Source: Escherichia coli
GTDB taxonomy: Bacteria > Pseudomonadota > Gammaproteobacteria > Enterobacterales > Enterobacteriaceae
DNA: 64,000 bases
NCBI RefSeq assembly: GCF_030384885.1
Contig: NZ_CP128615.1
Direction: 5' to 3' (one strand)
A program made the position numbers and the translations under genes. Below, piece by piece: positions 2,446-40,422 of this stretch. Position 1 is the stretch's first letter. Each line of letters starts with the position of its first letter. A model generated the notes under the pieces. That model had not been told where the DNA came from. It was given only the letters and a program-made list of their open reading frames with translations, and did no database searches.

Positions 2446-2676
2446 ATGCGCACAGTTTCGATATTTAAAAACGGCAATAACCGCGCCATCCGTCTGCCCC
2501 GGGACCTGGATTTTGATGGCGTCAGCGAGCTGGAGATCGTCCGGGAAGGGGACAGCATCATTCTGCGTCCCGTCCGGCCGACCTGGGGCTCGTTCGCGCA
2601 GCTGGACAGGGCCGATCCGGACTTTATGGCGGAGCGTGAGGATGTGGTCAGCGATGAAGGACGCTTTGAGCCATGA
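2446..2676 (+). CDS. vagC: VapB/VagC antitoxin (AbrB/SpoVT-type)
   Basis: 76 aa MRTVSIFKNGNNRAIRLPRDL...; ATGA overlap with downstream PIN gene. Confidence 0.9.
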   Translation: MRTVSIFKNGNNRAIRLPRDLDFDGVSELEIVREGDSIILRPVRPTWGSFAQLDRADPDFMAEREDVVSDEGRFEP

Positions 2677-3089
2677 AGAAAACCTGGATGCTCGACACCA
2701 ACATCTGCTCGTTCATCATGCGCGAGCAGCCGGCAGCGGTGCTGAAGCGCCTGGAGCAGGCGGTGCTGCGCGGTGATCGCATTGTGGTCTCGGCCGTGAC
2801 GTATGCCGAGATGCGCTTCGGCGCCACCGGCCCGAAGGCCTCGCCGCGCCATATTCAGCTGGTCGACGCGTTCTGCGCGCGCCTCGATGCCGTCCTGCCC
2901 TGGGACCGCGCCGCGGTGGACGCCACGACGGACATCCGGGTGGCGCTGCGCCTAGCCGGGACGCCGATCGGCCCGAATGACACGGCCATTGCCGGGCACG
3001 CCATCGCGGCGGGCGCCATCCTGGTGACGAACAATGTGAGAGAGTTTGCGCGGGTCCCGGGCCTGGTGCTGGAAGACTGGGTGAAATAA
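2673..3089 (+). CDS. vagD: VapC/VagD PIN-domain toxin
   Basis: 138 aa, MLDTNICSF... N-terminal PIN acidic motif, ...VTNNVREF; coupled to vagC. Confidence 0.9.
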   Translation: MKKTWMLDTNICSFIMREQPAAVLKRLEQAVLRGDRIVVSAVTYAEMRFGATGPKASPRHIQLVDAFCARLDAVLPWDRAAVDATTDIRVALRLAGTPIGPNDTAIAGHAIAAGAILVTNNVREFARVPGLVLEDWVK

Positions 3090-3233: not shown

Positions 3234-3292
3234 TGGAGTGACCCCGAGCCCGTAGACAAATCTGCCCTATAGTTTGAGCATAGGAGGAGTCT

Positions 3293-3577
3293 ATGGGCAC
3301 ATCACGTTTTACCCCTGAATTTAAGGAAGAGGCCGTCCGCCAGATCACCGAGCGGGGCTATTCTATTGCTGAAGTATCTGAACGGCTCGGCGTGTCGGCG
3401 CACAGCCTATATAAATGGCTCCGGGCTGTTAAGCCTGACAACAGTGGACAGCAGGCACAGGATTTACTGGATGCCAGAACAGAAATTCTCAGGCTGAAAG
3501 CACAGCTTAAACGCACTGAGGAAGAGCGGGATATTCTGAAAAAGGCAGCGCGGTACTTTGCAAGGGAGCCCGACTGA
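3293..3577 (+). CDS. IS3-family transposase OrfA (HTH)
   Basis: 94 aa MGTSRFTPEFKEEAVRQ...; leucine-zipper-like C-terminus; GAAAAAG run at 3538-3544 as candidate -1 frameshift site. Confidence 0.85.
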   Translation: MGTSRFTPEFKEEAVRQITERGYSIAEVSERLGVSAHSLYKWLRAVKPDNSGQQAQDLLDARTEILRLKAQLKRTEEERDILKKAARYFAREPD

Positions 3578-4149
3578 AGTATCGCTTTATCAACGATCAC
3601 CGTGAAATCTGGTCGATCGTTACAATGTGTCGGGTCCTTAAGGTTGCCCGTGCCGGATTTTATGTCTGGCTCCATAACCCTGTATCTGCCGGAGAAAAGG
3701 ATAACCAGCGACTGCTGGAACTCATCCGCGACTCCTATACGCTGAGTGGTGGAGTTTACGGTTATCGCAGGGTTCATGGCGATCTTCGCGAAATTGGCGA
3801 AGTGTGCAGCAGAAACCGGGTTGCCAAAATCATGAGGAAAAACAGGATTCAGGCTATACATGGTTATAAAGTGCCACGCGGGAGCCGGGGACGACCGTCA
3901 CTGATAGCGCCTAATCACGTGCGGCGTGAATTTACTGTAGTGAAGCCCAATCAGGTGTGGGTCACCGACATCACCTACATCCGCACCTGGCAGGGCTGGC
4001 TGTACCTGGCAGTGGTTATCGATCTTTTTGCCCGTAATGTGGTGGGCTGGTCGATGAAGCCGACACTGTCGCGCGAGCTGGCACTGGATGCGCTGCTGAT
4101 GGCGGTCTGGCGACGTAAACCTGAAGAAAACGTCATTGTGCACAGCGAT
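3540..4149 (+). pseudogene. IS3-family transposase OrfB, 5' part (interrupted after HSD of the DDE motif)
   Basis: RLKYRFINDHREIW...WVTDITYI...VIVHSD, then unrelated sequence from 4150. Confidence 0.8.
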
Positions 4150-4244
4150 AGTAATAATGCCGATGTCAGTCTTTACCACCACTTAGTTTGCCGTTTAACC
4201 AGATTGGTGTGATTACTGATGCAGTGAAGACCTTCCCGCATCCT

Positions 4245-4380
4245 GACTCACACAGCGATCGACCTTTTGTGTCCTGCCCTGGACCCGTCGGTTGCCGGAA
4301 GCGCCTTCATGCGAGGCATCTCCTCACCGATGCGCGTGACTCAAGAAGGGCCTGACGGCTTGTCTCGTTACTGTCCTGTC
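4245..4380 (+). ncRNA. candidate bridge RNA (target- and donor-binding loops) in the IS110 left end
   Basis: 4251-4260 equals the left flank. 4274-4282 is the reverse complement of the right flank. 4344-4351 equals the right end of the IS. 4368-4373 is the reverse complement of the circle junction. Boundaries approximate. Confidence 0.5.
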
Positions 4381-4430
4381 CGGGTTATCTGTCTGGAGAT
4401 TCAACTCTGTTTCCTCACAGGAGCTCTGTC

Positions 4431-5507
4431 ATGGTTGATAAAGTTACCGAAGCTGCCGTTGTGGGTGGCGTGGATACACATAAAGATTTGCACGTTGCCG
4501 CTGTCGTAGATCAGAACAATAAAGTCCTTGGGACTCAGTATTTCTCCACAACACGACAAGGTTACCGGCAGATGCTGGCATGGATGACCTCGTTTGGGAC
4601 ATTAAAGCGAATTGGTGTTGAGTGCACAGGTACCTATGGTTCCGGTTTGCTTCGTTATTTTCAGAACGCCGGGTTAGAAGTTCTTGAGGTGACTGCTCCA
4701 GACCGGATGGAGCGACGCAAACGGGGTAAAAGTGACACAATTGATGCTGAATGTGCCGCTCATGCAGCATTCTCAGGCATCAGGACAGTTACTCCCAAAA
4801 CGCGTGATGGCATGATTGAGTCCCTGCGGGTATTAAAAACTTGCCGAAAAACAGCAATATCAGCCCGCAGAGTCGCTCTCCAGATTATCCATTCAAATAT
4901 TATCTCTGCCCCGGATGAATTACGTGAACAGCTCAGAAATATGACGCGCATGCAGCTCATCAGGACCCTGGGTTCCTGGAGACCTGATGCCAGTGAATAC
5001 CGCAATGTAACCAACGTTTATCGCATTTCATTAAAGTCCCTTGCCCGACGCTATCTCGAGTTACATGACGAAATCGCTGATCTGGATGTCATGATTGCGG
5101 CAATTGTCGACGAGTTGGCACCTGAGCTGATTAAACGTAATGCTATCGGATACGAAAGCGCTTCACAGTTGCTGATCACTGCCGGAGACAATCCTCAACG
5201 GTTAAGATCAGAATCAGGATTTGCGGCACTGTGTGGTGTCAGCCCGGTCCCCGTTTCTTCTGGAAAAACGAACCGTTACCGACTTAATCGTGGTGGAGAT
5301 CGTGCTGCAAATAGTGCACTTCACATCATCGCCATCGGACGCTTACGAACTGACGCAAAAACAAAGGAATATGTCGCCAGGCGTGTAGCCGAAGGACATA
5401 CAAAAATGGAAGCGATACGCTGTCTAAAGCGATATATCTCCCGCGAAGTTTACACGTTACTGCGCAATCAAAACAGGCGGATCAACAGTATCCCGATAAC
5501 AGCTTGA
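4431..5507 (+). CDS. IS110-family DEDD transposase/recombinase
   Basis: 358 aa; N-terminal VVGGVDTHKDLHVAAVVD (RuvC-like DEDD start); C-terminal ...LCGVSPVPVSSGKTNRYRLNRGGDR... Confidence 0.9.
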   Translation: MVDKVTEAAVVGGVDTHKDLHVAAVVDQNNKVLGTQYFSTTRQGYRQMLAWMTSFGTLKRIGVECTGTYGSGLLRYFQNAGLEVLEVTAPDRMERRKRGKSDTIDAECAAHAAFSGIRTVTPKTRDGMIESLRVLKTCRKTAISARRVALQIIHSNIISAPDELREQLRNMTRMQLIRTLGSWRPDASEYRNVTNVYRISLKSLARRYLELHDEIADLDVMIAAIVDELAPELIKRNAIGYESASQLLITAGDNPQRLRSESGFAALCGVSPVPVSSGKTNRYRLNRGGDRAANSALHIIAIGRLRTDAKTKEYVARRVAEGHTKMEAIRCLKRYISREVYTLLRNQNRRINSIPITA

Positions 5508-5523
5508 CTCTTAGAAGGGCGTC

Positions 5524-5802
5524 CAGGGCAGTCAGTATGGCAGTGATGACTGGCAGCGGTTCTGCCGGGCCAATAATCTGGTACCGAGCATGAGCCGTCG
5601 CGGCAACTGCTGGGATAATGCAGTGGCAGAATCGTTCTTCAGTTCACTCAAAAAAGAGCGCATCAGGAAGCGGATATACAAAACCCGGGACATGGCCCGG
5701 GCGGATATTTTCGATTATATTGAAGTGTTCTACAACCGGGCCCGGCGCCACAGTCATCTCGGCGGCGTCAGCCCGGAGGCCTTCGAAAAGGCCTCGCAGT
5801 GA
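5524..5802 (+). pseudogene. IS3-family transposase OrfB, 3' part
   Basis: QGSQYGSDDWQRFCRANNLVPSMSRRGNCWDNAVAESFF...; same frame as 3540-4149 once the IS110 element is removed. Confidence 0.8.
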
Positions 5803-5909
5803 GGACAGAAACTGTCTACCGGAGCGTGGTCACTCCACATTTAAAGAAACGAGCTTTGGTAAACATACCTGTAATGACTCCATAAAATGGCGCGTCAAAC
5901 GACACCTAA

Positions 5910-7985
5910 TCAATTAACCCCAAGCGCCTTAAACACGGCATCGACGGGGTCTGCATAAAAGCTGATCTGGAATTTTGAGAACAACTCAGCAGGAACCGTT
6001 GGAATATCTGAGGCTGAGGCCATTGGGAGCAAAATACGCTTTGCGCCACTGTCCATAGCTAACTGAAGACTGCCTGCAAGATCTTGAACAGGATTGACGA
6101 CACCACCTAAAGTCATCTCACCCAAAACAACCATCTGCTCTTGAATCGGTCGGTTCATCAGAATTGAACAGAACGCAATTAATGCAGCGAGCGATGACTT
6201 TGTACTTGGCCCCGTATTGTGGAGCTCAACAACATGGAGGTGATACTCATGATCAGAAAACTTCGCCGACGCACTGATTCTATTCAGGTTACCTTTGAAA
6301 TAATCAAAGCCAACACGCACAGCTTCTTTCGCTGCGGTATTCGAACCAAGGCCAGACACTGAGTGTTTACCAGAACCAGCCATCATCTGGGTTTCATAGC
6401 GATATAACCCAAGCTGCCCAGTGCTTCCCTGAGTAACCAAGTGCACGACACCAGCGCGAGGTAAGCCCTCAGGAATTAGCTTGCTGCCACCTTGTTCCGG
6501 TACATTGATGAAGAATTCTTCTAATGAATCGTTATCGATGTAGCTAAAGTGCACATCAAAAAATTCCATTCCGCCAAGCTTTTTCAATTGCTCTTTGACT
6601 CTACGTCTAGTTTCCAGCGCATAGGTCAGGCAGGCTCTTACATCATCTTTTGTGTACTGTGCGTCGGGGTGTAGTAGCTTTAACAAGCCCGAAACAGTTC
6701 TGCGTACAGCAATTACATCACGCTGATTAAGGTTATTACCGAGTTTGAAGAACTTATCGATAGCATCCGCAAAACTTCTTTTGCGCATTTCACGCATGTA
6801 TTCAGCAAGATAGTCTGTGATTAATCCGTAACTATTGGTGAAAAACTCAGGACGCATCTTCGGTATTTCCCATCCAGGAATATAGGAATGGAAACGGTCA
6901 AAAAAAGCAGTGTCAATCATGGCTTCAGGAAAAGGTGCCAACAGATGACTGGTCTTCACCAGTGTCTCAACGCTTTGATTGATGTTACCGACGAATACCA
7001 TGGAAGCCTTCGCTTCGATTGAATCACGACCACGGGCAAAAGACCCTGACGCCATATAATCTTTCATTATTTGGACGCCGTCTTTGTCTTTAAAGTTAAT
7101 ACCCGCTACTTCATCAAAGGCGACAACATCCCACATTCCGACCAACCCAACTTGGCGCGAGCTCATGTTATAGAACAAGTTCGCCACAGTTGTTTGTCCG
7201 CCCGAGACAAGCAATGAGTTTGGTGAGCACTCCTTGTAGACATGGCTTTTACCTGTCCCTCTTGGTCCGAGCTCACAAACGTTGTAGTTGTTTTCAACGA
7301 ATGGGATCATACGAGTGATAAGATGCCATTTCACCCGATGCTCTAAGTTGGTTGGCTCCATACCCACGGAACGAAGCAACACATCCATCCACTGATCGGT
7401 ACTAAAATGTCTTCTGGTTGAAAACACCTCATCCATGTTCATGGACGGCATTTGTATCGGTTTTAAACTCATAATGGAGAAAGGTGATGTCTTCTGACCT
7501 TCCTCAAAGAAATACTGGACGGTAATAATGCACCAGATGCCGCCAGTTAATAATTTTTCGTTGTCTTGTACTATTTTGGTCGGTACAAGGGCATCCTTGA
7601 TACCCAGGTTCGACAACGCAGCTTCATAGACGTCTTTTTTCTGGTTGAGCTTAACGCTTACTTTGTCGATGATTTTAAACGTGCCGCGTTCACGGATCAG
7701 TGACTTCACTTTCTCCGCTTCATCTGGTCGGACATAGTTCTCAGCCAAGATTTTTTTTACATTATCAAGGCCTTGCATTACAACTTCGTCGTCATCGGAC
7801 GCACAATACATGCCTAGTAAATACTCAAGCACATAGACAGGGACGTTAGCGCCTTCTTTCAATTGCTTTGTCAGATCTTTTCGAACGACACGGCCTTTAA
7901 AATATTGGTTGAGCAATGCGTCTAAATCGGCGCTTTGCATCTGATTTTTTTCGTCTTTATGATCTTGTGAAAAATCAGTTGTCAT
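5910..7985 (-). CDS. brxL: BrxL (AAA+ / Lon-like protein of type I BREX)
   Basis: 691 aa; Walker A GPRGTGKSH; Lon-protease-like C-terminal domain; last gene of the BREX operon. Confidence 0.9.
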   Translation of the reverse strand: MTTDFSQDHKDEKNQMQSADLDALLNQYFKGRVVRKDLTKQLKEGANVPVYVLEYLLGMYCASDDDEVVMQGLDNVKKILAENYVRPDEAEKVKSLIRERGTFKIIDKVSVKLNQKKDVYEAALSNLGIKDALVPTKIVQDNEKLLTGGIWCIITVQYFFEEGQKTSPFSIMSLKPIQMPSMNMDEVFSTRRHFSTDQWMDVLLRSVGMEPTNLEHRVKWHLITRMIPFVENNYNVCELGPRGTGKSHVYKECSPNSLLVSGGQTTVANLFYNMSSRQVGLVGMWDVVAFDEVAGINFKDKDGVQIMKDYMASGSFARGRDSIEAKASMVFVGNINQSVETLVKTSHLLAPFPEAMIDTAFFDRFHSYIPGWEIPKMRPEFFTNSYGLITDYLAEYMREMRKRSFADAIDKFFKLGNNLNQRDVIAVRRTVSGLLKLLHPDAQYTKDDVRACLTYALETRRRVKEQLKKLGGMEFFDVHFSYIDNDSLEEFFINVPEQGGSKLIPEGLPRAGVVHLVTQGSTGQLGLYRYETQMMAGSGKHSVSGLGSNTAAKEAVRVGFDYFKGNLNRISASAKFSDHEYHLHVVELHNTGPSTKSSLAALIAFCSILMNRPIQEQMVVLGEMTLGGVVNPVQDLAGSLQLAMDSGAKRILLPMASASDIPTVPAELFSKFQISFYADPVDAVFKALGVN

Positions 7986-8001
7986 GTTTCACCTCAGCGC
8001 C

Positions 8002-10674
8002 TTAGAAAAAATCATCTTGGAATGCCAAATCAATGGTTACCGCGTATTGGCTATAACGGGTTCTCATTTCCGCATTCTCAAGAACTAATGTGTATTGAGC
8101 GTTTCTATCGAACTGGGAGCCAATAAGCTTTAACCTAGCTTCGCGAGTACGTTCATCCATCACTTTACTCACGCTATCAAAGTTAATCGTTTCACGACTG
8201 GAGACTTCATTACCTTGTGCATCGACGATATAGACATCCAACAACCGTGCGACGAAACGCTCGCCTACAGGGTCTGTCTGAATAAATCTGACCTTGTCGA
8301 TATTGTTTACTAATTTGATGGGCTGAGTGGCTGCTACAACACCTACCGGTTGTTTCTCATGTTTTGCTGCTTGTTCTTTTTGTAGCTCTCGCACATGTAG
8401 TACCGGTACGCAGACTTCCTGTAGCATCGCTCCGCCATGCACAAACTTAGCACCACCAACGAAGTGGAAGCGTTGAGCCGCTTTTGGAAGCAGGAACTCG
8501 GTATCACTTGAGCCATGAGCCGTATCGTTAATTGAGCCTTTCCAACAGGCTTCATCTGAAGGCAAGTTATTACCAACGATATAACGTTTCTTGGCTTCTA
8601 TCGCTCCAGCAGGTTTGGTTTTCAACGAGGTTTTGTCAGCCGCTACAAGTGCTTTTTGTTGGAAGAGGAAGCCATGGTCAGCAGTGATCACAACTCGGCT
8701 GCCGTTTAGACGGTTGATGACCCGCCCAACGAGGTCTTTTAGCTCTTCAATGGCACTACGACAGGCTTCAAACGTTTTCTCTTCAGTTGCTGCCTTATCA
8801 CCAATCGCATCAATGGTATCGTGATAGATATAAACGACTTCTACGTCTCGAACCTTGTCACGCCCCTCCTGGTTACTCCAGCTCATCAGTTCCTTAGAAC
8901 TCACTGCCATACCACCTACTTTTTGTAGGATGGCGTTGCGGTTGTCTAGACCCTGTGAAGAAATACCATCCACATAAACAGCCGTGCCTTGCTCTGGCTG
9001 GTAACTGAGCGCCTTATGAGGCAATAATGCCGCCATCCCAAGTTGGGTATAACTCGGCAAAACGCCCAACTGCGTAGACACCTCAGCCTTAAATCGCTTC
9101 TCGTTGTTAATGATAGCGCCAAGCTCATTCGCAATTTCAAAACGCAGGGCATCAGAGATGATCACAAACACTCGTTTTGTCTGTTTCAGACTCAGTCGTG
9201 TGCGAACTTCTTTTTCATAGAAGTCATACTGGTGCGGTACGCCAGAAATCTGCCACTTTTCAAGTAATTTTTCATTGGCCAAGTGACGATCCCATGCAAG
9301 GCCAAGCTCATACAAGTACCAGTTGGTATAAATGCTTTCGACTTCGTCGTCGAGCTGACGCAGTATGTCTGCACCTTTACTCAATACAGAGTGCACATGC
9401 TCATTGAACAAACGGTAAGCCTGGTCAAAACGATAAATGTCTGTGGTATAGGCGTCGTACATTGCTTTCGCGTTATCAAAGTGGAACCCATCCACATAGC
9501 GATTTCGCAAGTGCATTAACTCTTCAGCGTTGCGGATAGCTTCATAAATTGCGAAGTATTCTTTGCGTGACAATGTCCAGTGGCTAGAAAGACGTCTTGA
9601 TAAGACCGTATCAAACTGAACCCGGTCTAGCGCTTTACTGCTATCGAGCAAATCACGAACTAAACCACGGATTATGGCCTGTTCCACAGCTTCGAACGTT
9701 TCGCATTCGATAAGCTCAACCGGATGGTACTGCCCAGCACGAGTCGAAATTTCCAACTGTTGGCTAAGCACCTTAGAGATGCTTTCGTAGTAAGCGGCGA
9801 AAGAGCGGCTGTCGCGCCAGCTCACCATAAACGCCAAGGCTGTCGCCCGGCCTGATGCGCTTTTTAGAACATTGTTAAGCAACCAATCGCGTTCAACACC
9901 TTCAATTTGGCTCCAGAATTCAGTACAGAATAATTTCAACACGAAGTCTGAGAAGGTTGGCTCTTCAACTGTATAGCCAAAACCCTCACTCAGATATGCC
10001 CAGAGTGAGGTCTCAAGATCAAACTTTCCTAGCTGGCTCCATAAAGGTTGACCAAGGCTTTCATCTTCGATATAAGCCGCATATTCGCGTAGTAACCCAA
10101 GCAGAATGTCCGACAAAGACGCAGAATCAGCTTTTACAACCACTGCCATCATCTTTCTGTCTAACGACAGTTCGTCTTCGTTCTCAGTCACCCACTTTTT
10201 TAAACCGGCTATGCGCTGTTTATTGGCAAAAAAGCTCTGGCGCTTACGAATGTGCGTGCGAAGCGCCATTTTCGGAATACCCAGCTCATTAAGCAGCATT
10301 GAGCTGTGATCAGCAAAAAACTGCTCGCTATACAAACGCACGTCTAGCAACCAATCGCGGTCAGGCTCTGGCTCAGCGCTTGGAAAATAGATAAGGAATT
10401 TAGCTTCACGCTCATCTACTTCAATGCGTTTTTTCACTGCCAATACAGACTCATTGCCCATATTGAGGATGGTCAAATCATTTGGAAGCACCCGTGCAGT
10501 TTTATCCGCCGATTTATCGTCTGTTTCTTTTGCAAGCCCTTCTTTTGCAATAGAGAGGGCGTTAGCTAAATGCTCAAGCTCTTCAGTAAAGCTTTGCTCT
10601 GGGTCGTACCAAAACACAATGCGGCTTTGTTCAAATTTGGCAGCAACGCCTTGTGCCAGTTCACTAATCTGCAT
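8002..10674 (-). CDS. pglZ: PglZ (alkaline-phosphatase-superfamily BREX protein)
   Basis: 890 aa; VFVIISDALRFE and ITADHGF metal-site-like motifs; 1-nt overlap with pglX. Confidence 0.9.
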   Translation of the reverse strand: MQISELAQGVAAKFEQSRIVFWYDPEQSFTEELEHLANALSIAKEGLAKETDDKSADKTARVLPNDLTILNMGNESVLAVKKRIEVDEREAKFLIYFPSAEPEPDRDWLLDVRLYSEQFFADHSSMLLNELGIPKMALRTHIRKRQSFFANKQRIAGLKKWVTENEDELSLDRKMMAVVVKADSASLSDILLGLLREYAAYIEDESLGQPLWSQLGKFDLETSLWAYLSEGFGYTVEEPTFSDFVLKLFCTEFWSQIEGVERDWLLNNVLKSASGRATALAFMVSWRDSRSFAAYYESISKVLSQQLEISTRAGQYHPVELIECETFEAVEQAIIRGLVRDLLDSSKALDRVQFDTVLSRRLSSHWTLSRKEYFAIYEAIRNAEELMHLRNRYVDGFHFDNAKAMYDAYTTDIYRFDQAYRLFNEHVHSVLSKGADILRQLDDEVESIYTNWYLYELGLAWDRHLANEKLLEKWQISGVPHQYDFYEKEVRTRLSLKQTKRVFVIISDALRFEIANELGAIINNEKRFKAEVSTQLGVLPSYTQLGMAALLPHKALSYQPEQGTAVYVDGISSQGLDNRNAILQKVGGMAVSSKELMSWSNQEGRDKVRDVEVVYIYHDTIDAIGDKAATEEKTFEACRSAIEELKDLVGRVINRLNGSRVVITADHGFLFQQKALVAADKTSLKTKPAGAIEAKKRYIVGNNLPSDEACWKGSINDTAHGSSDTEFLLPKAAQRFHFVGGAKFVHGGAMLQEVCVPVLHVRELQKEQAAKHEKQPVGVVAATQPIKLVNNIDKVRFIQTDPVGERFVARLLDVYIVDAQGNEVSSRETINFDSVSKVMDERTREARLKLIGSQFDRNAQYTLVLENAEMRTRYSQYAVTIDLAFQDDFF

Positions 10675-13600
10675 TAGTTAACCTCCGGGGCCGAACCGGT
10701 AATGGCCTTAACATCAGCCAACAGATCACCAAACTTGCCGTAATTCACTTTCACGCCATCATCCAAATCCAGTGAAATACGCATATCAGCGTAGTGTTTT
10801 AGCTTGTCATCAAACTCGCGTAGTTCAACCTGTTTCTTGATTAAGGCATCCAACTCTTTCTTGAAGCGGTTCGCTTCACTGGTCGAGTCTGCCGTTTCAA
10901 TCTGCTTCTCAAGCTGCTCTGCATAAGCATCGTATTTGCCGAGTAACGGGGTGACATACTCGGTACGCATACGCGAAAGCGTGCCCTCGTTGTAACGGTG
11001 CAGGTAAACCAGGCACTCAAAAGCCTTCTGTTTGCCTGAGCTAAACAACCAATAAATAGGACGTTTTTTGTATGTCTTCAGGTGGTCTTTGTAGAATTGA
11101 GTCGATAAATAGCGGCGGATCGTCTCAAGAGCTGATTCTGATTTTTTGGGCTTTATGGCATTTAAGCACAGAGACTCTGCAACAAAATCGAGATTTTCTT
11201 GTAAGTGTTCTTCACCCCAAACAACTTGGACAAACTCGCGGAAACGATTGGTTGCGTCGTCCTTGAACCATTCTTGGTCGGTTAGGGGAATGATGCCATT
11301 TTCGTCGGCAGCAAAAGATTGATAAGCACCTTCGGCAACGAGTTTATCAAACCCATAATTACAAGCATGAGCGTAGACTAAGCCTTCACGATCAAGAGAG
11401 TAACGCCCCATCATGCAACCAATGGAGTAACTAATGAGTTCACAGGTTGTATCAGATTTTAACTTACTTAAATCAGTAGAATTTTCATATCGAAAAGCAG
11501 GGTTAGCAAATAATGATAGTGTTGAAATATCTATTGAAACCGGCACCGAAATTCCAAAATCATTGCATATTAAAGAATTAACTTCACTTTCCAAATTGGC
11601 TTGTTCATTAACTAGATTTAACTTCACTTCATTTAGAACCTGATAAGATTCAGCAATTTTGGCACGTTTTATTTTACACAGAGGCGAACATTCAAAGTTC
11701 CATGACGTTTCGTACATATCCCAATCAACCTTTGCGTTGGAAATTAAATCGCTCACCTTTTCAAACAATGCTTCTTTGTCAGCCTTATTGAAAATTGCCG
11801 GCAATGAGGCTATTTGACTCGTTTCATAGTTAAGCGTTGGCGAAATGATTTTTAACTGTTCCAGCACTACAGATGAGTTTAACTGAGCCAATAAGGCATA
11901 TTCTTCAATTCGAGAATTAAGAAATACTGATGCACCTGCAACGTCAAATATCGCTCCTTCAGGCTGCCATCTGAACGATGGAATTCCACTCGAAATTTTT
12001 GACCAAGTTACTGAGCTACGAAAATAAAATGCACCATTTTTCACAGTTCTAGTAGGAGACCCATACAAACTTTTAGCGTATGCAAATACCTCTTCACCTG
12101 CATTTTCCCAATTAATTACGTATTCCTGATTGCCATACCATTTTCTATATGAACCGCCTTTATTATATGGAAACCATTTGAATCCTGAGGATTCAGCTTC
12201 ATCTTTAGAACTAGAGTCATACATTGAGGTGTTTACTGGAACTTCATGCCATAGCCTTAAGAATCTATTATTATCACTTGTTTGACACCCAACTCTAGTT
12301 TTAGCAACTGACGATATTGGCGCGTCCATAAATGTATTTAATATTTCCTTGGCAACCCAATAAGCAATCGGACTCCCAGGAATCTTTTTGAAATCATCCT
12401 GAGCTGTCGCTGCAAATTCATTCTCTCTATTGAGCAATGCTTTTTGCTTTTCTTCTTCATTGCCATCTATCAGCCTATAAAAGGTAGGTTGATAATGATT
12501 GATGTGCTTATTTTGAATAATCCAGGCAGTAGTCTGTACAACCTCGCCACTAATCTGACTAAAAGCGCGTGCACCGAGGTGAGCCATAGTAATAAATGTA
12601 TGGTCTTCCAATAAATTGTTTCTTAGTTGCTCATAACTCGACAAGAACATCCACGATTGCATATTGATTTGAGCATTAAATCCATATTGAGAAAGCAATT
12701 TAAATGCTCGCTCCATAAAAATGGCAAACAAGTCTGATTTACTATTTGGGTATTGTTTCTTAGCAAACTCTTTCAAATCTGCATTCATTCCTTTTGCTCC
12801 CATATAGGGAGGATTAGCAATCACAGCATCGTAACGAATAGATAAAACCAAAGCCTGGTGAACAAACTCAATCAATTGCTTCGCTGCCAGCTTCTGCATT
12901 GAGTCGCCTGACTCTTGTAGCTCTACTAGCGTGCTCAGGAGCTCTTTTAGCTGTTCATGGTCATCGCTTGGTACATCAATCAATGAACCAAAGGTCTTGG
13001 CTTGAGTAAATCTTGCCAACGTTCGCTTCAGCAGTTGGTAGCGGTTGTCTGCATTGAACGAGCTTAAATCTTGCTCTTCGTCAGAGAACAGTCCTTGTGA
13101 TGTGCCGCTTTGCCAACTTCCCGATAGGTTGAGTGCTTTCCATAAGGTCGGCAGATCAATATGGTTACTTTCCTGCAATGACAGTACATTGAGTCGCACG
13201 TTACGGGTAAAAATACGCTTGTCGTCATCTCTCGCCATCATCATCAGGGCAAAGCCAGATAGCTGTGCTGCACGATCATCTATGTCCAAGCCGAAGAGGT
13301 TGTTCTCCAGGATCATCTTTGGAATGTCACGAGAGCGGAAACCACGTTCTTCGTAGATGGCTTTTAGTACGTTGTAAGCTTCAATCAGTATGTGGCCCGA
13401 GCCACAAGCGGGATCGAGTACTTTGATGGTTTCAGGTTCAATCGATTCTGGCGTAATAGCCTTTAGCTGTTGGTTAACTTCGTCAGATTGCTGCGCAGGC
13501 TCAATGTAGTATTCCATCTGGCTTTTAATGGCAGAGTCTGGGTAGGTTTGCAGCCATTGACGACCGACTGAGTTTTGTACCAGGTACTTTACAATCCAGT

Positions 13601-14342
13601 TAGGTGTAAATAGCTGAGTAGCGGCAGGAATGTCTTCACTTTTGACTACTTTTCCGATGACCTGATCTTTCTTTTCAGAAATGTAGAATTGGTAAAGCCA
13701 ACCAATCACTTCGACTTGTTGCCAGTCCTCTTCAGGGATGCCGTCTACCAATCCACGCAGAATGGAGTCGGTACGCATTAGGTTGTCTGGTAGCAGAAGC
13801 TCTGTTTCATCGTCCAATGCGTCAAATAAGAAAGGCATCGCTTCATGTAGCTTATGGCACTGGCCTAACAGCAGTTCACGATACAGCTCTTCGTCTTTGT
13901 TGCCCGCAAGCTTGAGTTCAACAATGCGAGCTCTATCTAATCCGAGTTCATCCGCAGCGTCTTGGGCATGGTCGATAATTTCAAAGCCTTTAGGGTTGTC
14001 TGGGTGCGACAAAACACGAAAACCGTGGCCTAGATAGTCATGGATTTCCATATAGCGAATAGCACACAGACGGTTGAACCAGGTATAAGCTACTTGTTCA
14101 ATAAGTTGTGCATACCCAAGTTTCTGGCTTCTGGCTACTATGCGTTTTCTGGGCTCGGCCAGTTTACCGTCAAAACTGTTACCAGCGATTTGAAGCACAG
14201 AACCTTGTAGATTCGCTTCTGCAATTTGTAGCTCGCCCTTTTTATTCGCGGTGATACCAAAGGTATTTAATCGTTTAGCTACCGCATCCATAAATTCGCG
14301 GCGCGCTTTTGGTGCGTATTTTTTAATGTTGTTCGTATTCAT
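10674..14342 (-). CDS. pglX: PglX, BREX N6-adenine DNA methyltransferase/specificity subunit
   Basis: 1222 aa; LDPACGSGHIL (SAM-binding) and VIANPPYMG (NPPY motif IV). Confidence 0.9.
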   Translation of the reverse strand: MNTNNIKKYAPKARREFMDAVAKRLNTFGITANKKGELQIAEANLQGSVLQIAGNSFDGKLAEPRKRIVARSQKLGYAQLIEQVAYTWFNRLCAIRYMEIHDYLGHGFRVLSHPDNPKGFEIIDHAQDAADELGLDRARIVELKLAGNKDEELYRELLLGQCHKLHEAMPFLFDALDDETELLLPDNLMRTDSILRGLVDGIPEEDWQQVEVIGWLYQFYISEKKDQVIGKVVKSEDIPAATQLFTPNWIVKYLVQNSVGRQWLQTYPDSAIKSQMEYYIEPAQQSDEVNQQLKAITPESIEPETIKVLDPACGSGHILIEAYNVLKAIYEERGFRSRDIPKMILENNLFGLDIDDRAAQLSGFALMMMARDDDKRIFTRNVRLNVLSLQESNHIDLPTLWKALNLSGSWQSGTSQGLFSDEEQDLSSFNADNRYQLLKRTLARFTQAKTFGSLIDVPSDDHEQLKELLSTLVELQESGDSMQKLAAKQLIEFVHQALVLSIRYDAVIANPPYMGAKGMNADLKEFAKKQYPNSKSDLFAIFMERAFKLLSQYGFNAQINMQSWMFLSSYEQLRNNLLEDHTFITMAHLGARAFSQISGEVVQTTAWIIQNKHINHYQPTFYRLIDGNEEEKQKALLNRENEFAATAQDDFKKIPGSPIAYWVAKEILNTFMDAPISSVAKTRVGCQTSDNNRFLRLWHEVPVNTSMYDSSSKDEAESSGFKWFPYNKGGSYRKWYGNQEYVINWENAGEEVFAYAKSLYGSPTRTVKNGAFYFRSSVTWSKISSGIPSFRWQPEGAIFDVAGASVFLNSRIEEYALLAQLNSSVVLEQLKIISPTLNYETSQIASLPAIFNKADKEALFEKVSDLISNAKVDWDMYETSWNFECSPLCKIKRAKIAESYQVLNEVKLNLVNEQANLESEVNSLICNDFGISVPVSIDISTLSLFANPAFRYENSTDLSKLKSDTTCELISYSIGCMMGRYSLDREGLVYAHACNYGFDKLVAEGAYQSFAADENGIIPLTDQEWFKDDATNRFREFVQVVWGEEHLQENLDFVAESLCLNAIKPKKSESALETIRRYLSTQFYKDHLKTYKKRPIYWLFSSGKQKAFECLVYLHRYNEGTLSRMRTEYVTPLLGKYDAYAEQLEKQIETADSTSEANRFKKELDALIKKQVELREFDDKLKHYADMRISLDLDDGVKVNYGKFGDLLADVKAITGSAPEVN

Positions 14343-14357
14343 ATGATCTTGCGCCTC

Positions 14358-16121
14358 TTATTCTGTCTCTACGCTGTTTGCGGGTTGTAATGCGGTTCTA
14401 ATGCGGGCAAGCAGTGTTTCCTGACGCTCGCGGTAAAAGTCCATAAACTGGTTTAGTTGTTCAGGTAATGATGTTATGGCTTGCGATTGCAGATGTGCTT
14501 GTCTTGCATTCACATCAGGCCACTGCTGCGCATACCATTCATGGGGCATTTTTTGCCGCTTCTGGTTGTTGATTGTCCCTTCCAACAGTTGAAGGTTTGG
14601 CAGCTTGTTAGATGCCTCGATGAGTTCATCTAGCTGTTCAGCTGGGACACCAACTTTTGCAAGCTTGTTACGCGTAAACAAACCTTTGGGGTAAATGTGG
14701 TCCACATGAAAGTGTCGTGAAAAATCGAATCCTGGGAACAACAAAGTCAACAAGGCAAAGGTACGCGGATTACCATAATCCAACTGCGCTAGTTCACTAA
14801 TTTCCTCTGGGTCAAAGCGCAACGATTTACCACGCTGTTGCATGGTCGCTTCAATTTTCGCTAGCGGGAAACCCGTATCACCCGATTGTTTAATGTCTGA
14901 GCGAAGCATAGTAAGCAGGGTATCCAAACCACTTCCCCAGATGCCTGACGCTTTCAACAACGACCTAATGAGCCAGTTTCTGATGCATTCTCTATCGACC
15001 GCATATTCAACCCTAGAAAGGTAGCTTGCCGTTAACTTTCGGTGGTGCAGGTAATAGGCTAACGGGAGGATGGCACTTGTTGCTCTGAGGTTTTGTGCAT
15101 TAAAACCAAAACTTGCCAGCAACTGCATTGAGAGCAATAACGCATCACGAATTGGCGTCCAGTTCTTTTCGAGAATCGCCATATTTTCCTTGTTAAAGTT
15201 CTCAACCTTAAAGCCCACGCTACCGATGTCAGAGAGCATTAAGCCTGCTTTTAAAACGAGATCTTTTGATACGTTGAATCCATCACCAACACGGTTCATC
15301 TCATCCACTAAGGCATGAATTTCTTCACGGGCATCTAACGAGCTCCACTGCGCTACGGCTATTGAAAGTAGTAAGTCTGAGTAGGACAAAGTAGTGCCGC
15401 CGCTATTCATGCGGATAAAGATATTCAGAACACGTTCAAGGCTCTGATCACTTTCTTCGTAAAACGAAATCTTATCTTTGTCATGGATAGTTCGATACAA
15501 GTGACGAAGAGTTGAGCGAGCCTCTTTGCGTTGCTCCGAGCTCAACCTAGCATCATCAGCAACTTCATCGATAAGTGCATCTTCTTCCTCTTCCATGATC
15601 CGGCCTACACGGAACCAGTATTGTTCAGATGCATCCAAAGAGGCTTTATCGTCGGTTAGGAACTCAAAGTCATACATCGACCCAGTTTCTAAGTCGGGCT
15701 GGCTTAACAGATTTAAGTGAAGCCTGCGCACTGGGAAGGCGTCATCATTGCTCCACCATTTACCTGTCAGCTTCCACGCAAATGAGCCGCGTAGGCCGAT
15801 GTTCAAAGCGGTAATCCGCTGCTGTCCATCTAGGACGGCAATGAACTCACGCTCTGGTAACTGAGTGACATTTTCACAATGGTAGTTATCTCGCTCATGG
15901 TAATGCTGCATGAACTGATAAAACTGATAGCTATGCCGGTTCTCTGGTTTTATCTTCCAGAATAGAAAGGTCCCAAACGGGTAACCTTGCAACAGGCTAT
16001 CAAATAGACGACAGATCTGTTCTGGTCGCCATACAAACTCTCGCTGGATGGCCGGTAACAGGTATTCCTGCTCAGCAACCTTGTCGAGTAATGATCTTAT
16101 TGTTCCACCCGCTTGATACAT
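14358..16121 (-). CDS. DUF262/DUF1524 GmrSD-like (BrxU-like) putative type IV restriction enzyme embedded in the BREX operon
   Basis: 587 aa; N-terminal IQREFVW...LDGQQR (DUF262/ParB-like NTPase); C-terminal HVDHIYPK...LQLLEGTINNQK (His-Me/HNH-like DUF1524). Confidence 0.8.
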   Translation of the reverse strand: MYQAGGTIRSLLDKVAEQEYLLPAIQREFVWRPEQICRLFDSLLQGYPFGTFLFWKIKPENRHSYQFYQFMQHYHERDNYHCENVTQLPEREFIAVLDGQQRITALNIGLRGSFAWKLTGKWWSNDDAFPVRRLHLNLLSQPDLETGSMYDFEFLTDDKASLDASEQYWFRVGRIMEEEEDALIDEVADDARLSSEQRKEARSTLRHLYRTIHDKDKISFYEESDQSLERVLNIFIRMNSGGTTLSYSDLLLSIAVAQWSSLDAREEIHALVDEMNRVGDGFNVSKDLVLKAGLMLSDIGSVGFKVENFNKENMAILEKNWTPIRDALLLSMQLLASFGFNAQNLRATSAILPLAYYLHHRKLTASYLSRVEYAVDRECIRNWLIRSLLKASGIWGSGLDTLLTMLRSDIKQSGDTGFPLAKIEATMQQRGKSLRFDPEEISELAQLDYGNPRTFALLTLLFPGFDFSRHFHVDHIYPKGLFTRNKLAKVGVPAEQLDELIEASNKLPNLQLLEGTINNQKRQKMPHEWYAQQWPDVNARQAHLQSQAITSLPEQLNQFMDFYRERQETLLARIRTALQPANSVETE

Positions 16122-16137
16122 AGTTATCCGTTGCCTC

Positions 16138-19100: not shown

Positions 19101-19815
19101 AATTGTTTTCAACCTGTTCAACCCACGCTTTGGCAGACTCTAATGATTGCTCACTGGCATGAGCGAGTGCTTCTGAAAGTTCGTCTCGATAGAAGTCATA
19201 GGCGTCACGCTCCTTTTCCCAAGTTGATTGAGTCAACTCAGCAAATTTGTCCTTGAAAGACATGTATTGATTACGCTTATCAAGCTCGCGTTCTAAATGC
19301 GCAATGTGAGGAAAATCAGCGCAGTATCCTACACGCTCATTAAAGACTTTGAGGAAGACCTTAAGAATGGCATTTTCTCGGTCATCCGTATTGGCTCGTG
19401 AATCGATGTTAAAAAGAATAACATCAGTGTCTTTGGTAACAGCGTTTTGGATATCGGCCAACAGCATGGCATCGTTGATTTTGTCTTTAAAAAACTCAAA
19501 TGCTTGACGGCCTTGGCCATCCTTTTCGACAGACTTATTTTCGAGGAGGTAAGACAAAATTTTCAGGAAGTGAGACTTACCCGAACCAAAGAAGCCAGAG
19601 ATCCACACACCAATTTTTCCTGACATTGATGCGCCACTTTGCGTCACAGATGGAACGTAAGCCTCAAAGAAAGCGCGAAAATGTCGATCTAGCTCTCGGG
19701 TTACAACATACTCATCAAGTTCGACATACACACTGTCATTGTCTTTCTGTTCCGCTTTAACAACGCCGTTAATATCACGCGTCAACTTCTTGGAAAAAAT
19801 CTGTTCAATTTTCAT
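16138..19815 (-). CDS. brxC: BrxC/PglY large P-loop ATPase
   Basis: 1225 aa; GFFGSGKSHFLK Walker A, LLFLVDEVGQF Walker B; position after brxB. Confidence 0.9.
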   Translation of the reverse strand: MKIEQIFSKKLTRDINGVVKAEQKDNDSVYVELDEYVVTRELDRHFRAFFEAYVPSVTQSGASMSGKIGVWISGFFGSGKSHFLKILSYLLENKSVEKDGQGRQAFEFFKDKINDAMLLADIQNAVTKDTDVILFNIDSRANTDDRENAILKVFLKVFNERVGYCADFPHIAHLERELDKRNQYMSFKDKFAELTQSTWEKERDAYDFYRDELSEALAHASEQSLESAKAWVEQVENNFPLDIRNFCKWVNEYLDRTGDRNLLFLVDEVGQFIGKNTQMMLKLQTITEDLGTYCGGRAWVVVTSQADIDAAIGGMDKRDGEDFSKIQGRFSTRLQLSSSNTSEVIQKRLLSKTEEARTHLIDVFAEKGDILRNQLTFDKTTTASLKGYTDAPSFVDNYPFVPYHYTLVQKVFESIRTKGATGKHLAMGERSLLDAFQSAAKQMKDSGLDVLIPFYSFYAPIESFLEPAVKRTIDQACELDSLTEFDGKILKTLFLIRYVDVVKSTLDNLVTLSIDRIDADKIALRKQIEESLNRLERQLLIARNGDEFIFLTNEEKEIENEIRHTDVEMSEVSNKLSAIVFDGILKGNRAYRYPINKQDFAVSRFCNGHPKDGTTLEDLVIKVISPLDSHFENYSHDQACINHTLEADGCVLVKLGEHKRLWDDLTTFIKTDRFLKQNSGQRPEQEHLLREKQMENIEREKRLRTDFEALFAEADVYAIGTKLPKKSATPSAIVEEAYKYVIENTFAKLNMLKATPGEVLRELQAVLVADDIAQIGLDLQADECNPEATREVEQYVTLKVERNEPVYLRDIVAHFGKRPYGWPDNEILLLTARLGLAGKLSFSTQGTDLALKKAYEPFTSVRKRGEIRVHKIRQHDERQIKKAAGLVKEIFSKTFTGSGEKELYELVRDELLAWNEELKSFRTKSQTGHFPGKSQIDDGLALVAGILEQTSSFALITRFLENADALEEFAEDFEDLDDFYNSQFQTWQALAGALNEKFKANRPALEKDSEALKALTELERIYNMPSPYEQLRHINPLIEQVAKINSTLVEEKRTHALERVDLRIGRVKEALAEAHAPSELQNQALRPLQMCRQRIEATSSIPQIISEQTEAEGYEDEAYELLNGFIEDQRKKAEAEQRRRELEQQTREEEAAKAGKAAPAPEPASEPVQPQPVAKRTVTINSTDAMAKSVTTGFIESEAEVDAYLAALREQLIAAVKAGDRVRIK

Positions 19816-40316: not shown

Positions 40317-40422
40317 AATGAGAGATAGACCGGAACACAACCGGTGCAAGTCCATAGCAACTCGTTTCTTTTCGCAGGTTGAGCCACCTCCGCGCTTCAT
40401 CAGAAAACTGAAGGAACCTCCA

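What the first reader, a model, noticed from the sequence alone, without database searches (positions are those of the whole stretch)
4141..5531. IS110-family element whose left end carries bridge-RNA-like guides matching its own flanks and circle junction
Four short matches sit inside the 281-bp non-coding left end.
- 4251-4260 CACAGCGATC equals the left flank 4141-4149 plus the first base of the restored target.
- 4274-4282 CTGCCCTGG is the reverse complement of the right flank 5523-5531.
- 4344-4351 AGAAGGGC equals the right end of the IS at 5513-5520.
- 4368-4373 TTACTG is the reverse complement of the right-end/left-end junction C|AGTAA.

Each pair is separated by 13-16 nt and uses opposite strands, as described for IS110/IS621 bridge RNAs. 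Circularisation would also build a promoter, TTGACT (5504-5509) -17 nt- AATAAT (4153-4158).

The target lies exactly in the codons for the conserved HSD|QGSQY DDE motif of an IS3-family transposase. That makes this an IS that parasitises another IS.
Basis: partly seen in the sequence, partly recalled or inferred. Interest (0 to 1): 0.7.

Follow-up and report, generated by a model that had tools for sequence, protein, structure and literature searches.

The report
ISEc21-like bridge-RNA IS in ISEc15

Summary
All four short matches exist at the stated coordinates. In 200,000 shuffles of the left end, the target pair never recurred and the donor pair recurred at 4e-4. The element is window 4150-5523 (1,374 bp). 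It interrupts ISEc15 exactly between the Asp and Gln codons of HSD|QGSQY, with no target duplication. It is 92.6% identical in DNA and 97% in protein to the ISEc21 copy used by Siddiquee et al. 2024 (PMC11187229), with the same length, right end and guide segments. That paper showed for ISEc21 the IS3-family DDE target, the circle-junction promoter, the RNA requirement and reprogramming.

Eighty relatives share a two-loop fold (94.5% of cells paired, 15 compensatory pairs). All four matches lie in internal loops. The left target guide tracks the left flank. The left donor guide tracks the right end (four variants). The right donor guide tracks the left end (four variants).

Two departures from the IS621 model:
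- Target and donor share no core dinucleotide, only a pyrimidine at position 9.
- The handshake nucleotides read positions 7-8.

Many relatives, but not this copy, carry a spare left-target guide.

The parts
3234..4149 (+). Left part of the host element ISEc15 (IS3 family): inverted repeat from 3234, orfA 3293-3577, and the N-terminal part of orfB from 3625 up to the Asp codon
   Evidence: rve and HTH_21 domains. (uninterrupted copies are annotated ISEc15). (the inverted repeats at 3234 and 5837 match 20 of 24).
4141..4149 (+). Left target half (positions 1-9), CACAGCGAT, the His-Ser-Asp codons
4150..5523 (+). ISEc21-type IS110-family insertion sequence, 1,374 bp, AGTAAT...GGGCGTC, with no terminal inverted repeats and no target duplication
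   Evidence: empty site. (same ends in 13 copies). (92.6% identical to the reference ISEc21, same length). (the ends match 11 of 40 as inverted repeats).
4153..4158 (+). -10 hexamer AATAAT of the promoter that forms only at the circle junction
   Evidence: (the fixed geometry is conserved in relatives). Shown active for ISEc21 in PMC11187229.
4165..4220 (+). 5' stem-loop of the guide RNA; a plain hairpin in this copy
   Evidence: Most differences from ISEc21 in the left end fall here.
4221..4313 (+). Target-binding loop module: basal stem (consensus pairs 4233-4247 with 4287-4299), then an internal loop of 13 + 13 nt around an apical hairpin
   Evidence: Seven of the 11 basal-stem pairs show compensatory changes.
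4251..4259 (+). Left target guide CACAGCGAU, same sense as the left flank, so it pairs with the bottom strand
   Evidence: It tracks the left flank in relatives (permutation p = 0.002). Actinobacterial guides match 9 of 9 (L073 and L077; L079 and L089 read from the sequence printed).
4261..4273 (+). Apical hairpin of the target-binding loop (GACC...GUC)
   Evidence: helix 2, 99% of cells paired.
4274..4282 (+). Right target guide CUGCCCUGG, complementary to the top strand of Y-CAGGGCAG. G4282 faces position 9.
4283..4284 (+). Handshake nucleotides A and C of the target loop, complementary to the donor's T5522 and G5521. The reverse complement of 4274-4284 is GTCCAGGGCAG, identical to the right junction 5521-5531.
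   Evidence: Read from the sequence. Covariation: AC where the right end is GTC, AU where it is ATC (L023 and the actinobacterial group, with a reversal in L064).
4313..4325 (+). Short linker hairpin between the two loops
   Evidence: helix 3, 100% paired, one compensatory pair.
4327..4391 (+). Donor-binding loop module: basal stem 4327-4340 with 4378-4391, then an internal loop of 13 + 13 nt around an apical hairpin, the same geometry as the target loop
4344..4351 (+). Left donor guide AGAAGGGC, same sense as the right end of the IS
   Evidence: It tracks the right end in four variants across relatives: AGAAGGGC, AGGAGAGC, ATAGGAGC and ATAAGAGC.
4354..4364 (+). Apical hairpin of the donor-binding loop (GAC GGCUU GUC)
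   Evidence: helix 6, two compensatory pairs, e.g. GAU/AUC in L023.
4365..4373 (+). Right donor guide. 4368-4373 UUACUG is complementary to the junction C|AGTAA, and G4373 faces position 9 (C5523).
   Evidence: It tracks the left end in four variants: AGTAA, AGTCA, AGTGA and AGAGA.
4374..4375 (+). Handshake nucleotides U and C of the donor loop, complementary to the target's A4148 and G4147
   Evidence: Read from the sequence. UC where the target ends GAY, UU where it ends AAC (L073, L075). L038 has UU with a G at target position 7, a U-G wobble.
4431..5507 (+). Recombinase gene, 358 aa, with an N-terminal DEDD RuvC-like domain and a C-terminal Transposase_20 domain
   Evidence: (D15, E64, D102, D105 and S276-S277-G278 are invariant in 17 homologues). 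(the predicted fold matches IS621 and ISCro4).
5504..5509 (+). -35 hexamer TTGACT, overlapping the stop codon, 14 nt from the right end
   Evidence: (TTGACN lies at the same distance in nearly all parsed relatives).
5513..5523 (+). Left donor half AGAAGGGC plus GTC (donor positions 7-9); the crossover lies after C5523
5524..5531 (+). Right target half CAGGGCAG, the Gln-Gly-Ser codons
5524..5837 (+). Right part of ISEc15 (rest of orfB, inverted repeat ending at 5837)

Best explanation
Window 4150-5523 is an intact ISEc21-type member of the IS110 family. It has inserted site-specifically into the transposase gene of ISEc15, at the codons of the second Asp of the DDE motif.

How it most likely works:
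1. When the element leaves its site, its ends abut (...TTGACTCTTAGAAGGGCGTC|AGTAATAATGCC...). This builds a sigma-70-type promoter: -35 TTGACT, 17 nt, -10 AATAAT.
2. Transcription from about 4165 gives an RNA with a 5' hairpin and two internal loops of identical geometry, followed by the recombinase message.
3. [quoted passage not shown]
4. [quoted passage not shown]
5. The DEDD/Ser recombinase cuts the top strands 3' of position 9 in both partners (GAT| and GTC|) and exchanges them.
6. The two nucleotides after each 3' guide then pair with the partner DNA: A,C in the target loop and U,C in the donor loop (handshake).
7. The product is exactly what the window shows.

Basis of each part. Shown here: the anatomy, the site specificity, the conserved fold and the guide-DNA covariation. 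Shown by others for ISEc21: the circle, the junction promoter, the RNA requirement, RNA binding to the transposase, and reprogramming. Inferred: use of the donor loop, the cleavage positions, and top-strand-first chemistry.
For: Matches and chance levels.

Exact insertion without duplication.

Independent insertions at the same codon boundary in different IS3-family elements: (ISEc15, IS911, two further types).

Relatives from many genera sit in IS3-type transposase genes with flanks reading ...HSD|QGSQ, HSD|RG and NTD|QGSQ.

Identity with the studied ISEc21. Identity is 92.6% in DNA and 97.2% in protein. There are 14 differences in the left end, none in a guide. The right end is identical.

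Published experiments on ISEc21: (PMC11187229).

Conserved fold. The loops map to 13 + 13 nt internal loops.

Guide-DNA covariation.

Junction promoter geometry conserved.

Protein: family by Pfam, catalytic residues invariant, predicted fold matching IS621 entries 8WT6 and 8WT9 and ISCro4 entry 9T56 at E about 1e-10.

PGAP already labels this protein 'IS110 family RNA-guided transposase'.
Against: - There are no expression or biochemical data for this copy.
- Single-sequence folding of the whole left end is no more stable than shuffles (z = -0.55).
- RNAalifold also proposes an invariant pairing, AGGGC with GUCCU, inside the donor loop, which would partly occlude the donor guides in free RNA.
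- In PMC11187229 a 58-nt RNA covering only the target loop moved a mini-IS that had only 29 bp of left end. The donor loop is therefore not strictly required in that assay.
- The IS621 rule of an identical core dinucleotide in target and donor is not met. Position 8 is A in the target and T in the donor. Position 9 is T or C in the target and C in the donor.
- Rfam 15 gave no bridge-RNA hit at E up to 10, so there is no independent model-based confirmation.
Confidence: 0.9

Rival explanations
1. Only the target-binding loop (the 'seekRNA') acts as a guide. The second loop's matches to the IS ends are conserved for another reason, for example as part of the recombinase leader, and donor ends are recognised through the flanking target halves or by the protein.
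For: In PMC11187229, a 58-nt RNA sufficed to move a mini-IS carrying only 29 bp of left end and 16 bp of right end. The donor also had to be flanked by the target halves. The short RNA was the abundant species bound to the transposase. The CazIS110-1 preprint reports a direct-transfer route using RNA with only the target-binding loop.
Against:: the 8-nt left donor guide changes together with the right end in four variants. The right donor guide changes together with the left end in four variants. The nucleotide two positions after the right target guide changes with donor position 7 (C with G, U with A) in at least two to three separate lineages. The second loop has the same 13 + 13 nt geometry as the first. 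The CazIS110-1 preprint also finds that circle formation and complete transposition need the full two-loop RNA.
Confidence: 0.08
2. The matches are chance, or relics of an earlier target duplication carried inside the left end, and the recombinase protein alone recognises the site.
For: The matches are short (6-10 nt). The site is a highly conserved protein-coding motif that could in principle be read by a protein.
Against: The target pair occurred in 0 of 200,000 shuffles. The matches sit in a fold with 15 compensatory pairs. Guides and flanks change together across relatives, including completely different 9-mers that match their flanks 9 of 9 (L073 and L077; L079 and L089 read from the sequence printed). 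ISEc21 was reprogrammed experimentally.
Confidence: 0.01
3. The element follows the IS621 scheme exactly, with a shared core dinucleotide and exchange of both strands. The apparent lack of a core would then reflect later mutation or repair of a mismatched heteroduplex.
For: The fold and loop order match IS621. For targets ending in GAC, one C is shared on both sides.
Against: Position 8 is A in every target and T in every donor, across Proteobacteria and Actinobacteria. Independent insertions give the same junctions. None of about 400 plasmid records with the ISEc15 left flank, and none of about 200 with the right flank, shows the alternative junction expected from the other strand of a heteroduplex. 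Those records may, however, all descend from one event. PMC11187229 reports no duplication for ISEc21.
Confidence: 0.15

Closest known systems
ISEc21 (IS110 family), as characterised by Siddiquee et al. 2024, Nat Commun (PMC11187229)
   Same: Same length of 1,374 bp. The right end, all four guide segments and both handshake dinucleotides are identical. The transposase is also 358 aa (97.2% identical). The target is the same, the codons around the second Asp of the DDE motif in IS3-family transposases, and there is no target duplication. Plasmid papers already call this very element ISEc21 when it lies next to a truncated ISEc15 and aacC2-tmrB (PMC7096625).
   Different: There are 101 nucleotide differences (92.6% identity). 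This is below the usual 95% isoform limit of ISfinder, a limit I cite from my own knowledge. Fourteen differences lie in the left end, mostly in the 5' hairpin, with two in apical loops and one beside the closing stem. This variant is the one spread on Klebsiella and other enterobacterial plasmids: 1,014 plasmid records at 99% identity or more. ISEc21 proper is mostly chromosomal in E. coli.
IS621 and its bridge RNA (Durrant et al. 2024, PMC11208160; Hiraizumi et al. 2024, PMC11208158)
   Same: - The RNA is encoded in the left end, downstream of a junction promoter.
- It has a 5' stem-loop, then a target-binding loop, then a donor-binding loop.
[quoted passage not shown]
- Handshake nucleotides are complementary to the partner DNA.
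- The top-strand crossover lies 3' of position 9.
- The recombinase has the same fold.
   Different: - The proteins are only 16-19% identical, and neither sequence nor profile searches of the PDB find IS621.
- The recombinase is 358 aa, against 326 aa for IS621.
- There is no shared CT-type core dinucleotide. Only a pyrimidine at position 9 is common, read by a G in both loops.
- The handshake nucleotides read positions 7-8 instead of 6-7.
- The left donor guide covers donor positions -1 to 6, two bases out of register with the left target guide.
- The target is an IS3-family gene rather than REP-type sequence. The REP target is from my own knowledge; IS3 is not mentioned in PMC11208160.
CazIS110-1 (bioRxiv 10.1101/2025.10.25.684509)
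   Same: The preprint reports copy-out and integration mainly through the top strand, plus a route that uses RNA with only the target-binding loop. The junctions here are exactly the top-strand exchange product. This would explain why target and donor need not share positions 8-9.
   Different: It is a different, thermophilic element. No strand-specific data exist for ISEc21-type elements.

Membership tests
IS110 family (IS110 group) insertion sequences | Transposase with an N-terminal DEDD RuvC-like domain and a C-terminal Transposase_20 domain carrying a conserved Ser | tested here: met
   PF01548 at 3.4e-20 and PF02371 at 1.9e-12. D15, E64, D102, D105 and S276-S277-G278 are invariant in 17 homologues.
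IS110 family (IS110 group) insertion sequences | Long non-coding region upstream of the transposase gene | tested here: met
   281 nt (4150-4430) upstream, against 16 nt downstream. PMC11187229 states that this arrangement is the IS110-type one.
IS110 family (IS110 group) insertion sequences | No terminal inverted repeats and no, or minimal, target duplication | tested here: met
   The ends match 11 of 40 as inverted repeats. Comparison with the empty site shows no duplicated base.
IS110 family (IS110 group) insertion sequences | A promoter assembled at the junction of the circular form | tested here: met
   By sequence only: -35 TTGACT, 17 nt, -10 AATAAT. The -35 lies at the same distance from the right end in nearly all parsed relatives. 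Activity was not testable here; it is reported for ISEc21.
Bridge RNA (IS621 type) | Two internal loops in a conserved fold, with the target loop 5' of the donor loop | tested here: met
Bridge RNA (IS621 type) | Target-loop guides match the left flank (same sense) and the right flank (complement), and vary with the target | tested here: met
   Covariation of the right target guide is weak within Proteobacteria (p = 0.41 over 5 nt, 0.04 over 8 nt), because all the targets share CAGGG or CGNGG.
Bridge RNA (IS621 type) | Donor-loop guides match the right end and the left end of the element, and vary with them | tested here: met
   (four variants of each).
Bridge RNA (IS621 type) | An identical core dinucleotide in target and donor, present on both sides of the inserted element | tested here: not met
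   The target has A-T or A-C and the donor has T-C at positions 8-9. No base is duplicated in the window. The same is reported for ISEc21.
Bridge RNA (IS621 type) | Handshake guides complementary to the partner DNA rather than to the loop's own DNA | tested here: met
   with the difference that they read positions 7-8.
Bridge RNA (IS621 type) | The RNA is expressed, binds the recombinase and is required for recombination | not testable with these tools
   Shown for ISEc21 in PMC11187229. Not shown for this copy.
Bridge RNA (IS621 type) | A match to a curated covariance model | tested here: inconclusive
   Rfam 15 gave only three chance-level snoRNA hits over 3900-5800. The published bridge-RNA models were not available.
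Bridge RNA (IS621 type) | Recombinase fold as in the solved IS621-bridge RNA complexes | tested here: met
   AlphaFold model with pLDDT 82. The top PDB hits are 8WT9, 8WT6 and 9T56 at E 5e-11 to 3e-9.
ISEc21 (the ISfinder entry) | Isoform level of identity to the reference (about 95% in DNA or 98% in protein, by ISfinder convention, from my own knowledge) | tested here: not met
   92.6% in DNA and 97.2% in protein against LT903847.1:1802057-1803430. It is a close variant rather than an isoform.
ISEc21 (the ISfinder entry) | Same length, ends, guides and target | tested here: met

The most novel reading that the evidence does not exclude
The ISEc21 clade may use a variant of the bridge mechanism. 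Target and donor overlap by one pyrimidine (position 9) instead of a shared core dinucleotide. The handshake nucleotides read positions 7-8. The observed junctions are the pure top-strand product, which fits integration by top-strand transfer. In many relatives, though not in this copy, the 5' stem-loop carries a spare left-target guide. This would let one element use two codon variants of the IS3 DDE motif: Ser AGC against Ser TCN, or His-Ser-Asp against Asn-Thr-Asp.
Probability: 0.4. Interest if true: 0.45.

Novelty: already known. Interest (0 to 1): 0.2.

Why it matters
For annotation, the ISEc15 gene here is split by an RNA-guided IS. The 281-nt 'non-coding' left end is a functional guide-RNA gene.

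For biology, this is a well-populated natural example of an IS lineage that lives inside another IS family. It targets codons the host element cannot change without losing its catalytic Asp. The trait holds from Enterobacteria to Alphaproteobacteria. Some actinobacterial relatives instead carry unrelated 9-nt guides that match their own flanks, whose identity I did not determine.

The variant in the window is very common on resistance plasmids of Klebsiella and its relatives. Rearranged copies next to aacC2-tmrB or ISEcp1-blaCTX-M-15 suggest half-site recombination. This may contribute to plasmid remodelling.

None of this changes the published picture. The departures from IS621 (no core dinucleotide, shifted handshake, spare guide in relatives) are the only parts that might interest a specialist.

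Tried and rejected
- **Rfam scan** at E up to 10 gave only chance snoRNA hits.
- **Sequence and profile searches of the PDB** found nothing. The link to IS621 needed a fold search.
- **Folding the whole left end** as one sequence was uninformative (z = -0.55). Structure came only from the alignment of relatives.
- **IS621-style shared cores.** I tried to fit AT, TC or GT to the junctions. Each predicts a base that is absent on one side or extra on the other, so I dropped them.
- **Heteroduplex idea.** It predicts alternative junctions CACAGCG-TC-AGTAAT and GGGCG-AT-CAGGGC. None was found among plasmid records.
- **Hits H133 and H134**, whose match starts at IS position 141, looked like natural retargeting. 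They are copies truncated by an IS21-family element.
- **The second CACAGCGAT at 25487** is not a target, because no CAGGG follows it.
- **The ISfinder name of this variant** could not be determined. Sources give only 'IS110 family (RNA-guided) transposase'.
- **The preprint on half-match recombination** (10.64898/2026.08.31.748434) is not held in the library.
Full report
**Observation**

- 4251-4260 CACAGCGATC repeats the left flank 4141-4149 plus one base.
- 4274-4282 CTGCCCTGG is the reverse complement of 5523-5531.
- 4344-4351 AGAAGGGC repeats 5513-5520.
- 4368-4373 TTACTG is the reverse complement of CAGTAA, which spans 5523|4150-4154.

In 200,000 shuffles of the 281-nt left end the target pair never recurred, and the donor pair recurred at 4e-4.

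An uninterrupted ISEc15 in the same vapBC-ISEc15-brxL context reads CACAGCGAT|CAGGGCAG. The insert is therefore 4150-5523, 1,374 bp, with no duplicated base. ISEc15 itself runs 3234-4149 and 5524-5837.

**What it is**

The ORF 4431-5507 (358 aa) carries the two Pfam domains of IS110-family transposases. The DEDD residues and the Ser-Ser-Gly motif are invariant among homologues. Its predicted structure (pLDDT 82) best matches the IS621 and ISCro4 recombinases solved with their bridge RNAs, at 16-19% identity. Sequence searches of the PDB see nothing.

The element is widespread. It occurs in 1,792 plasmid records, 1,014 of them at 99% identity or more, mostly Klebsiella. It or its relatives occur in 1,195 of 5,426 complete E. 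coli genomes.

The nearest named element is ISEc21. Against the copy used experimentally (LT903847.1), it has the same length and 92.6% DNA identity. Protein identity is 97.2%. The right end and every guide segment are identical.

**Already published**

Siddiquee et al. 2024 (PMC11187229) showed the following for ISEc21:
- The target is the codons around the second Asp of the DDE motif of certain IS3-family transposases.
- A circle forms with abutted ends and a junction promoter.
- The upstream non-coding region is needed, in cis or in trans.
- A 74-nt RNA matching both target strands co-purifies with the transposase, and 58 nt suffice.
- Insertion makes no duplication.
- The RNA can be reprogrammed.

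Durrant et al. and Hiraizumi et al. 2024 established the two-loop bridge RNA for IS621. A plasmid paper already labels this very arrangement 'ISEc21, truncated ISEc15, aacC2-tmrB' (PMC7096625). Newer PGAP annotation calls the protein an 'IS110 family RNA-guided transposase'.

**Site specificity**

Thirteen E. coli copies have identical ends. Eleven lie at HSD|QG in at least five different IS3-family sequences, for example:
- gtgCACAGCGAT|CAGGGCAGTCAG
- ttcCACAGCGAT|CAGGGCAGTCAT (IS911)
- ttcCATAGCGAC|CAGGGAAG
- CACAGCGAT|CAGGGTAG

These must be independent events. Up to two mismatches on the left and one on the right are tolerated. Position 9 is T or C.

Relatives found through the protein (80 loci at 47-98% identity) sit in the same motif in IS3-type genes of Pseudomonas, Halomonas, Nitrosomonas, Rhodobacteraceae and others.

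A second, intact IS3-family transposase gene in the window (39459-40316) has an unoccupied site, CACACAGAC|CGTGGGAG. It differs from the guides at three left and three or more right positions.

**Structure**

An alignment of 26 distinct left ends gives a consensus with the following parts:
- a basal stem, an internal loop and an apical hairpin, 4233-4299 here;
- a short linker hairpin, 4313-4325;
- a second stem, loop and hairpin, 4327-4391.

For this structure 94.5% of cells are standard pairs, against 30-45% when partners are slid. Fifteen pairs show changes on both sides. No shuffle out of 500 reaches the observed values.

Both internal loops have 13 nt on each side: three bases, a 9-nt guide and one base on the 5' side, then a 9-nt guide and four bases on the 3' side.

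**Guide-DNA covariation**

Parsing 57 loci gives four results.
- The left target guide follows the left flank. The permutation test within Proteobacteria gives p = 0.002. Actinobacterial elements with unrelated 9-mers match their flanks 9 of 9 (L073 and L077; L079 and L089 read from the sequence printed).
- The left donor guide equals the right end in four variants: AGAAGGGC, AGGAGAGC, ATAGGAGC and ATAAGAGC.
- The right donor guide follows the left end in four variants: AGTAA, AGTCA, AGTGA and AGAGA.
- The right target guide shows little extra signal, because nearly all the targets share CAGGG or CGNGG.

The donor loop was not discussed in PMC11187229. These data support it as a real donor-binding loop.

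The -35 TTGACN overlaps the stop codon. It lies 14 nt from the right end in nearly all parsed relatives.

**Departures from IS621**

In IS621 a CT core at positions 8-9 is shared by target and donor and flanks the element. The top strands are cut after position 9.

Here the crossover is also after position 9 (GAT| and GTC|). However, position 8 is A in every target and T in every donor. Position 9 is T or C against C. A G faces position 9 in both loops.

The next two nucleotides are complementary to the partner DNA:
- A,C after the right target guide matches the donor's T,G. The reverse complement of 4274-4284 is identical to 5521-5531, 11 of 11.
- U,C after the right donor guide matches the target's A,G.

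These positions covary across loops. The target loop has A,U where the right end is ATC (L023 and the actinobacterial group; back to A,C with GTC in L064). The donor loop has U,U where the target ends AAC (L073, L075).

This is the handshake logic of Hiraizumi et al., shifted by one base, with a one-base overlap.

The junctions in the window are the pure top-strand product. I found no copy with the junction expected from the other strand of a heteroduplex, though those records may share one ancestor. A preprint on CazIS110-1 reports integration mainly by top-strand transfer, which would make a shared core unnecessary. This part is inference.

**Non-canonical copies**

- In L001 the left flank is ...TAAGAAGGGCTCAC|AGTAAT. 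It carries nine bases identical to the left donor guide region (AAGAAGGGC). That junction therefore looks like a donor site.
- In L002 and L004 the right flank is AGTTGCTG..., upstream of aac(3)-IIe.
- Only 206 of 1,283 plasmid records keep the ISEc15 right flank, and 398 of 949 keep the left flank.

These observations fit the half-site recombination described for IS110 elements. I did not reconstruct the events.

**Verdict**

The element and its mechanism are already known, as a close variant of ISEc21.

Noticed in passing
Relatives L021-L065 and L086, about 59 nt upstream of the target loop; absent from the window (4165-4220 is a plain hairpin): Many relatives carry a second half-loop, UGAC-NNN-[9 nt]-NGAC, in the 5' stem-loop. 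It is framed like the left-target-guide side of the target loop but holds a different 9-mer. Examples: main CACTCCGAT with spare CACAGCGAT, or main CACTCCGAT with spare AACACCGAT. Of 23 loci with a known left flank, the flank is closer to the spare guide in 12 and to the main guide in 11. In one metagenome-assembled genome, copies with identical guide segments sit in both kinds of site (L050 against L051, L053 and L057). This may be a spare guide for a second codon variant of the IS3 motif.
   Followed up: partly
L001:2460-2520 (E. coli plasmid pCO_Eco4457-1; same in H39, H40, H112): A copy whose left flank is not an IS3 site. The flank is ...TAAGAAGGGCTCAC, sharing nine bases with the left donor guide region. 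Its right flank is still the ISEc15 right half, followed by ISEcp1-blaCTX-M-15. It looks like recombination at a half-site matching a donor guide.
   Followed up: partly
L002:3900-4060 and L004 (plasmids with aac(3)-IIe): The right end GGGCGTC is followed by AGTTGCTGCC... instead of the ISEc15 right half, and the aacC2-tmrB region lies downstream. This rearranged form seems to be the majority on Klebsiella plasmids: only 206 of 1,283 records keep the ISEc15 right flank.
   Followed up: partly
L032, right junction (Rhodobacteraceae contig): The right end AGAAGGGCGTC is followed directly by AGTCAGATC, the left end of a related element. This is a head-to-tail junction like the one in the circle.
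   Followed up: no
L035, left junction: The left flank reads CATTCGGTC|AGTCAT. Positions 8-9 are the donor's TC rather than the target's AT or AC, so the Asp codon reads as Val. It is the only case seen that resembles the other-strand product of a mismatched overlap.
   Followed up: no
window 39459-40316, site at 40029-40045: A second, intact IS3-family transposase gene (rve domains) has an unoccupied equivalent site, CACACAGAC|CGTGGGAG (His-Thr-Asp|Arg-Gly). It differs from the guides at three left and three or more right positions. An APH-family phosphotransferase gene follows at 40237-41226.
   Followed up: partly
window 5910-19815, minus strand: A BREX-type defence locus lies directly next to ISEc15: brxL (5910-7985), a PglZ protein (8002-10674), a methyltransferase of PglX type (10674-14342), a GmrSD_N/DUF262-type protein (14358-16121) and BrxC (16138-19815). 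The vapBC toxin-antitoxin pair lies on the other side, at 2446-3089.
   Followed up: no
window 28661-31627 and 35497-38382, minus strand: Two Tn3-family transposase genes, with a PAS/HAMP chemoreceptor-like gene between them (32500-34077). The window is a mosaic plasmid region.
   Followed up: no
window 5502-5509 and relatives: The transposase stop codon TGA lies inside the -35 hexamer TTGACT of the junction promoter. The same arrangement is seen in nearly all parsed relatives.
   Followed up: yes
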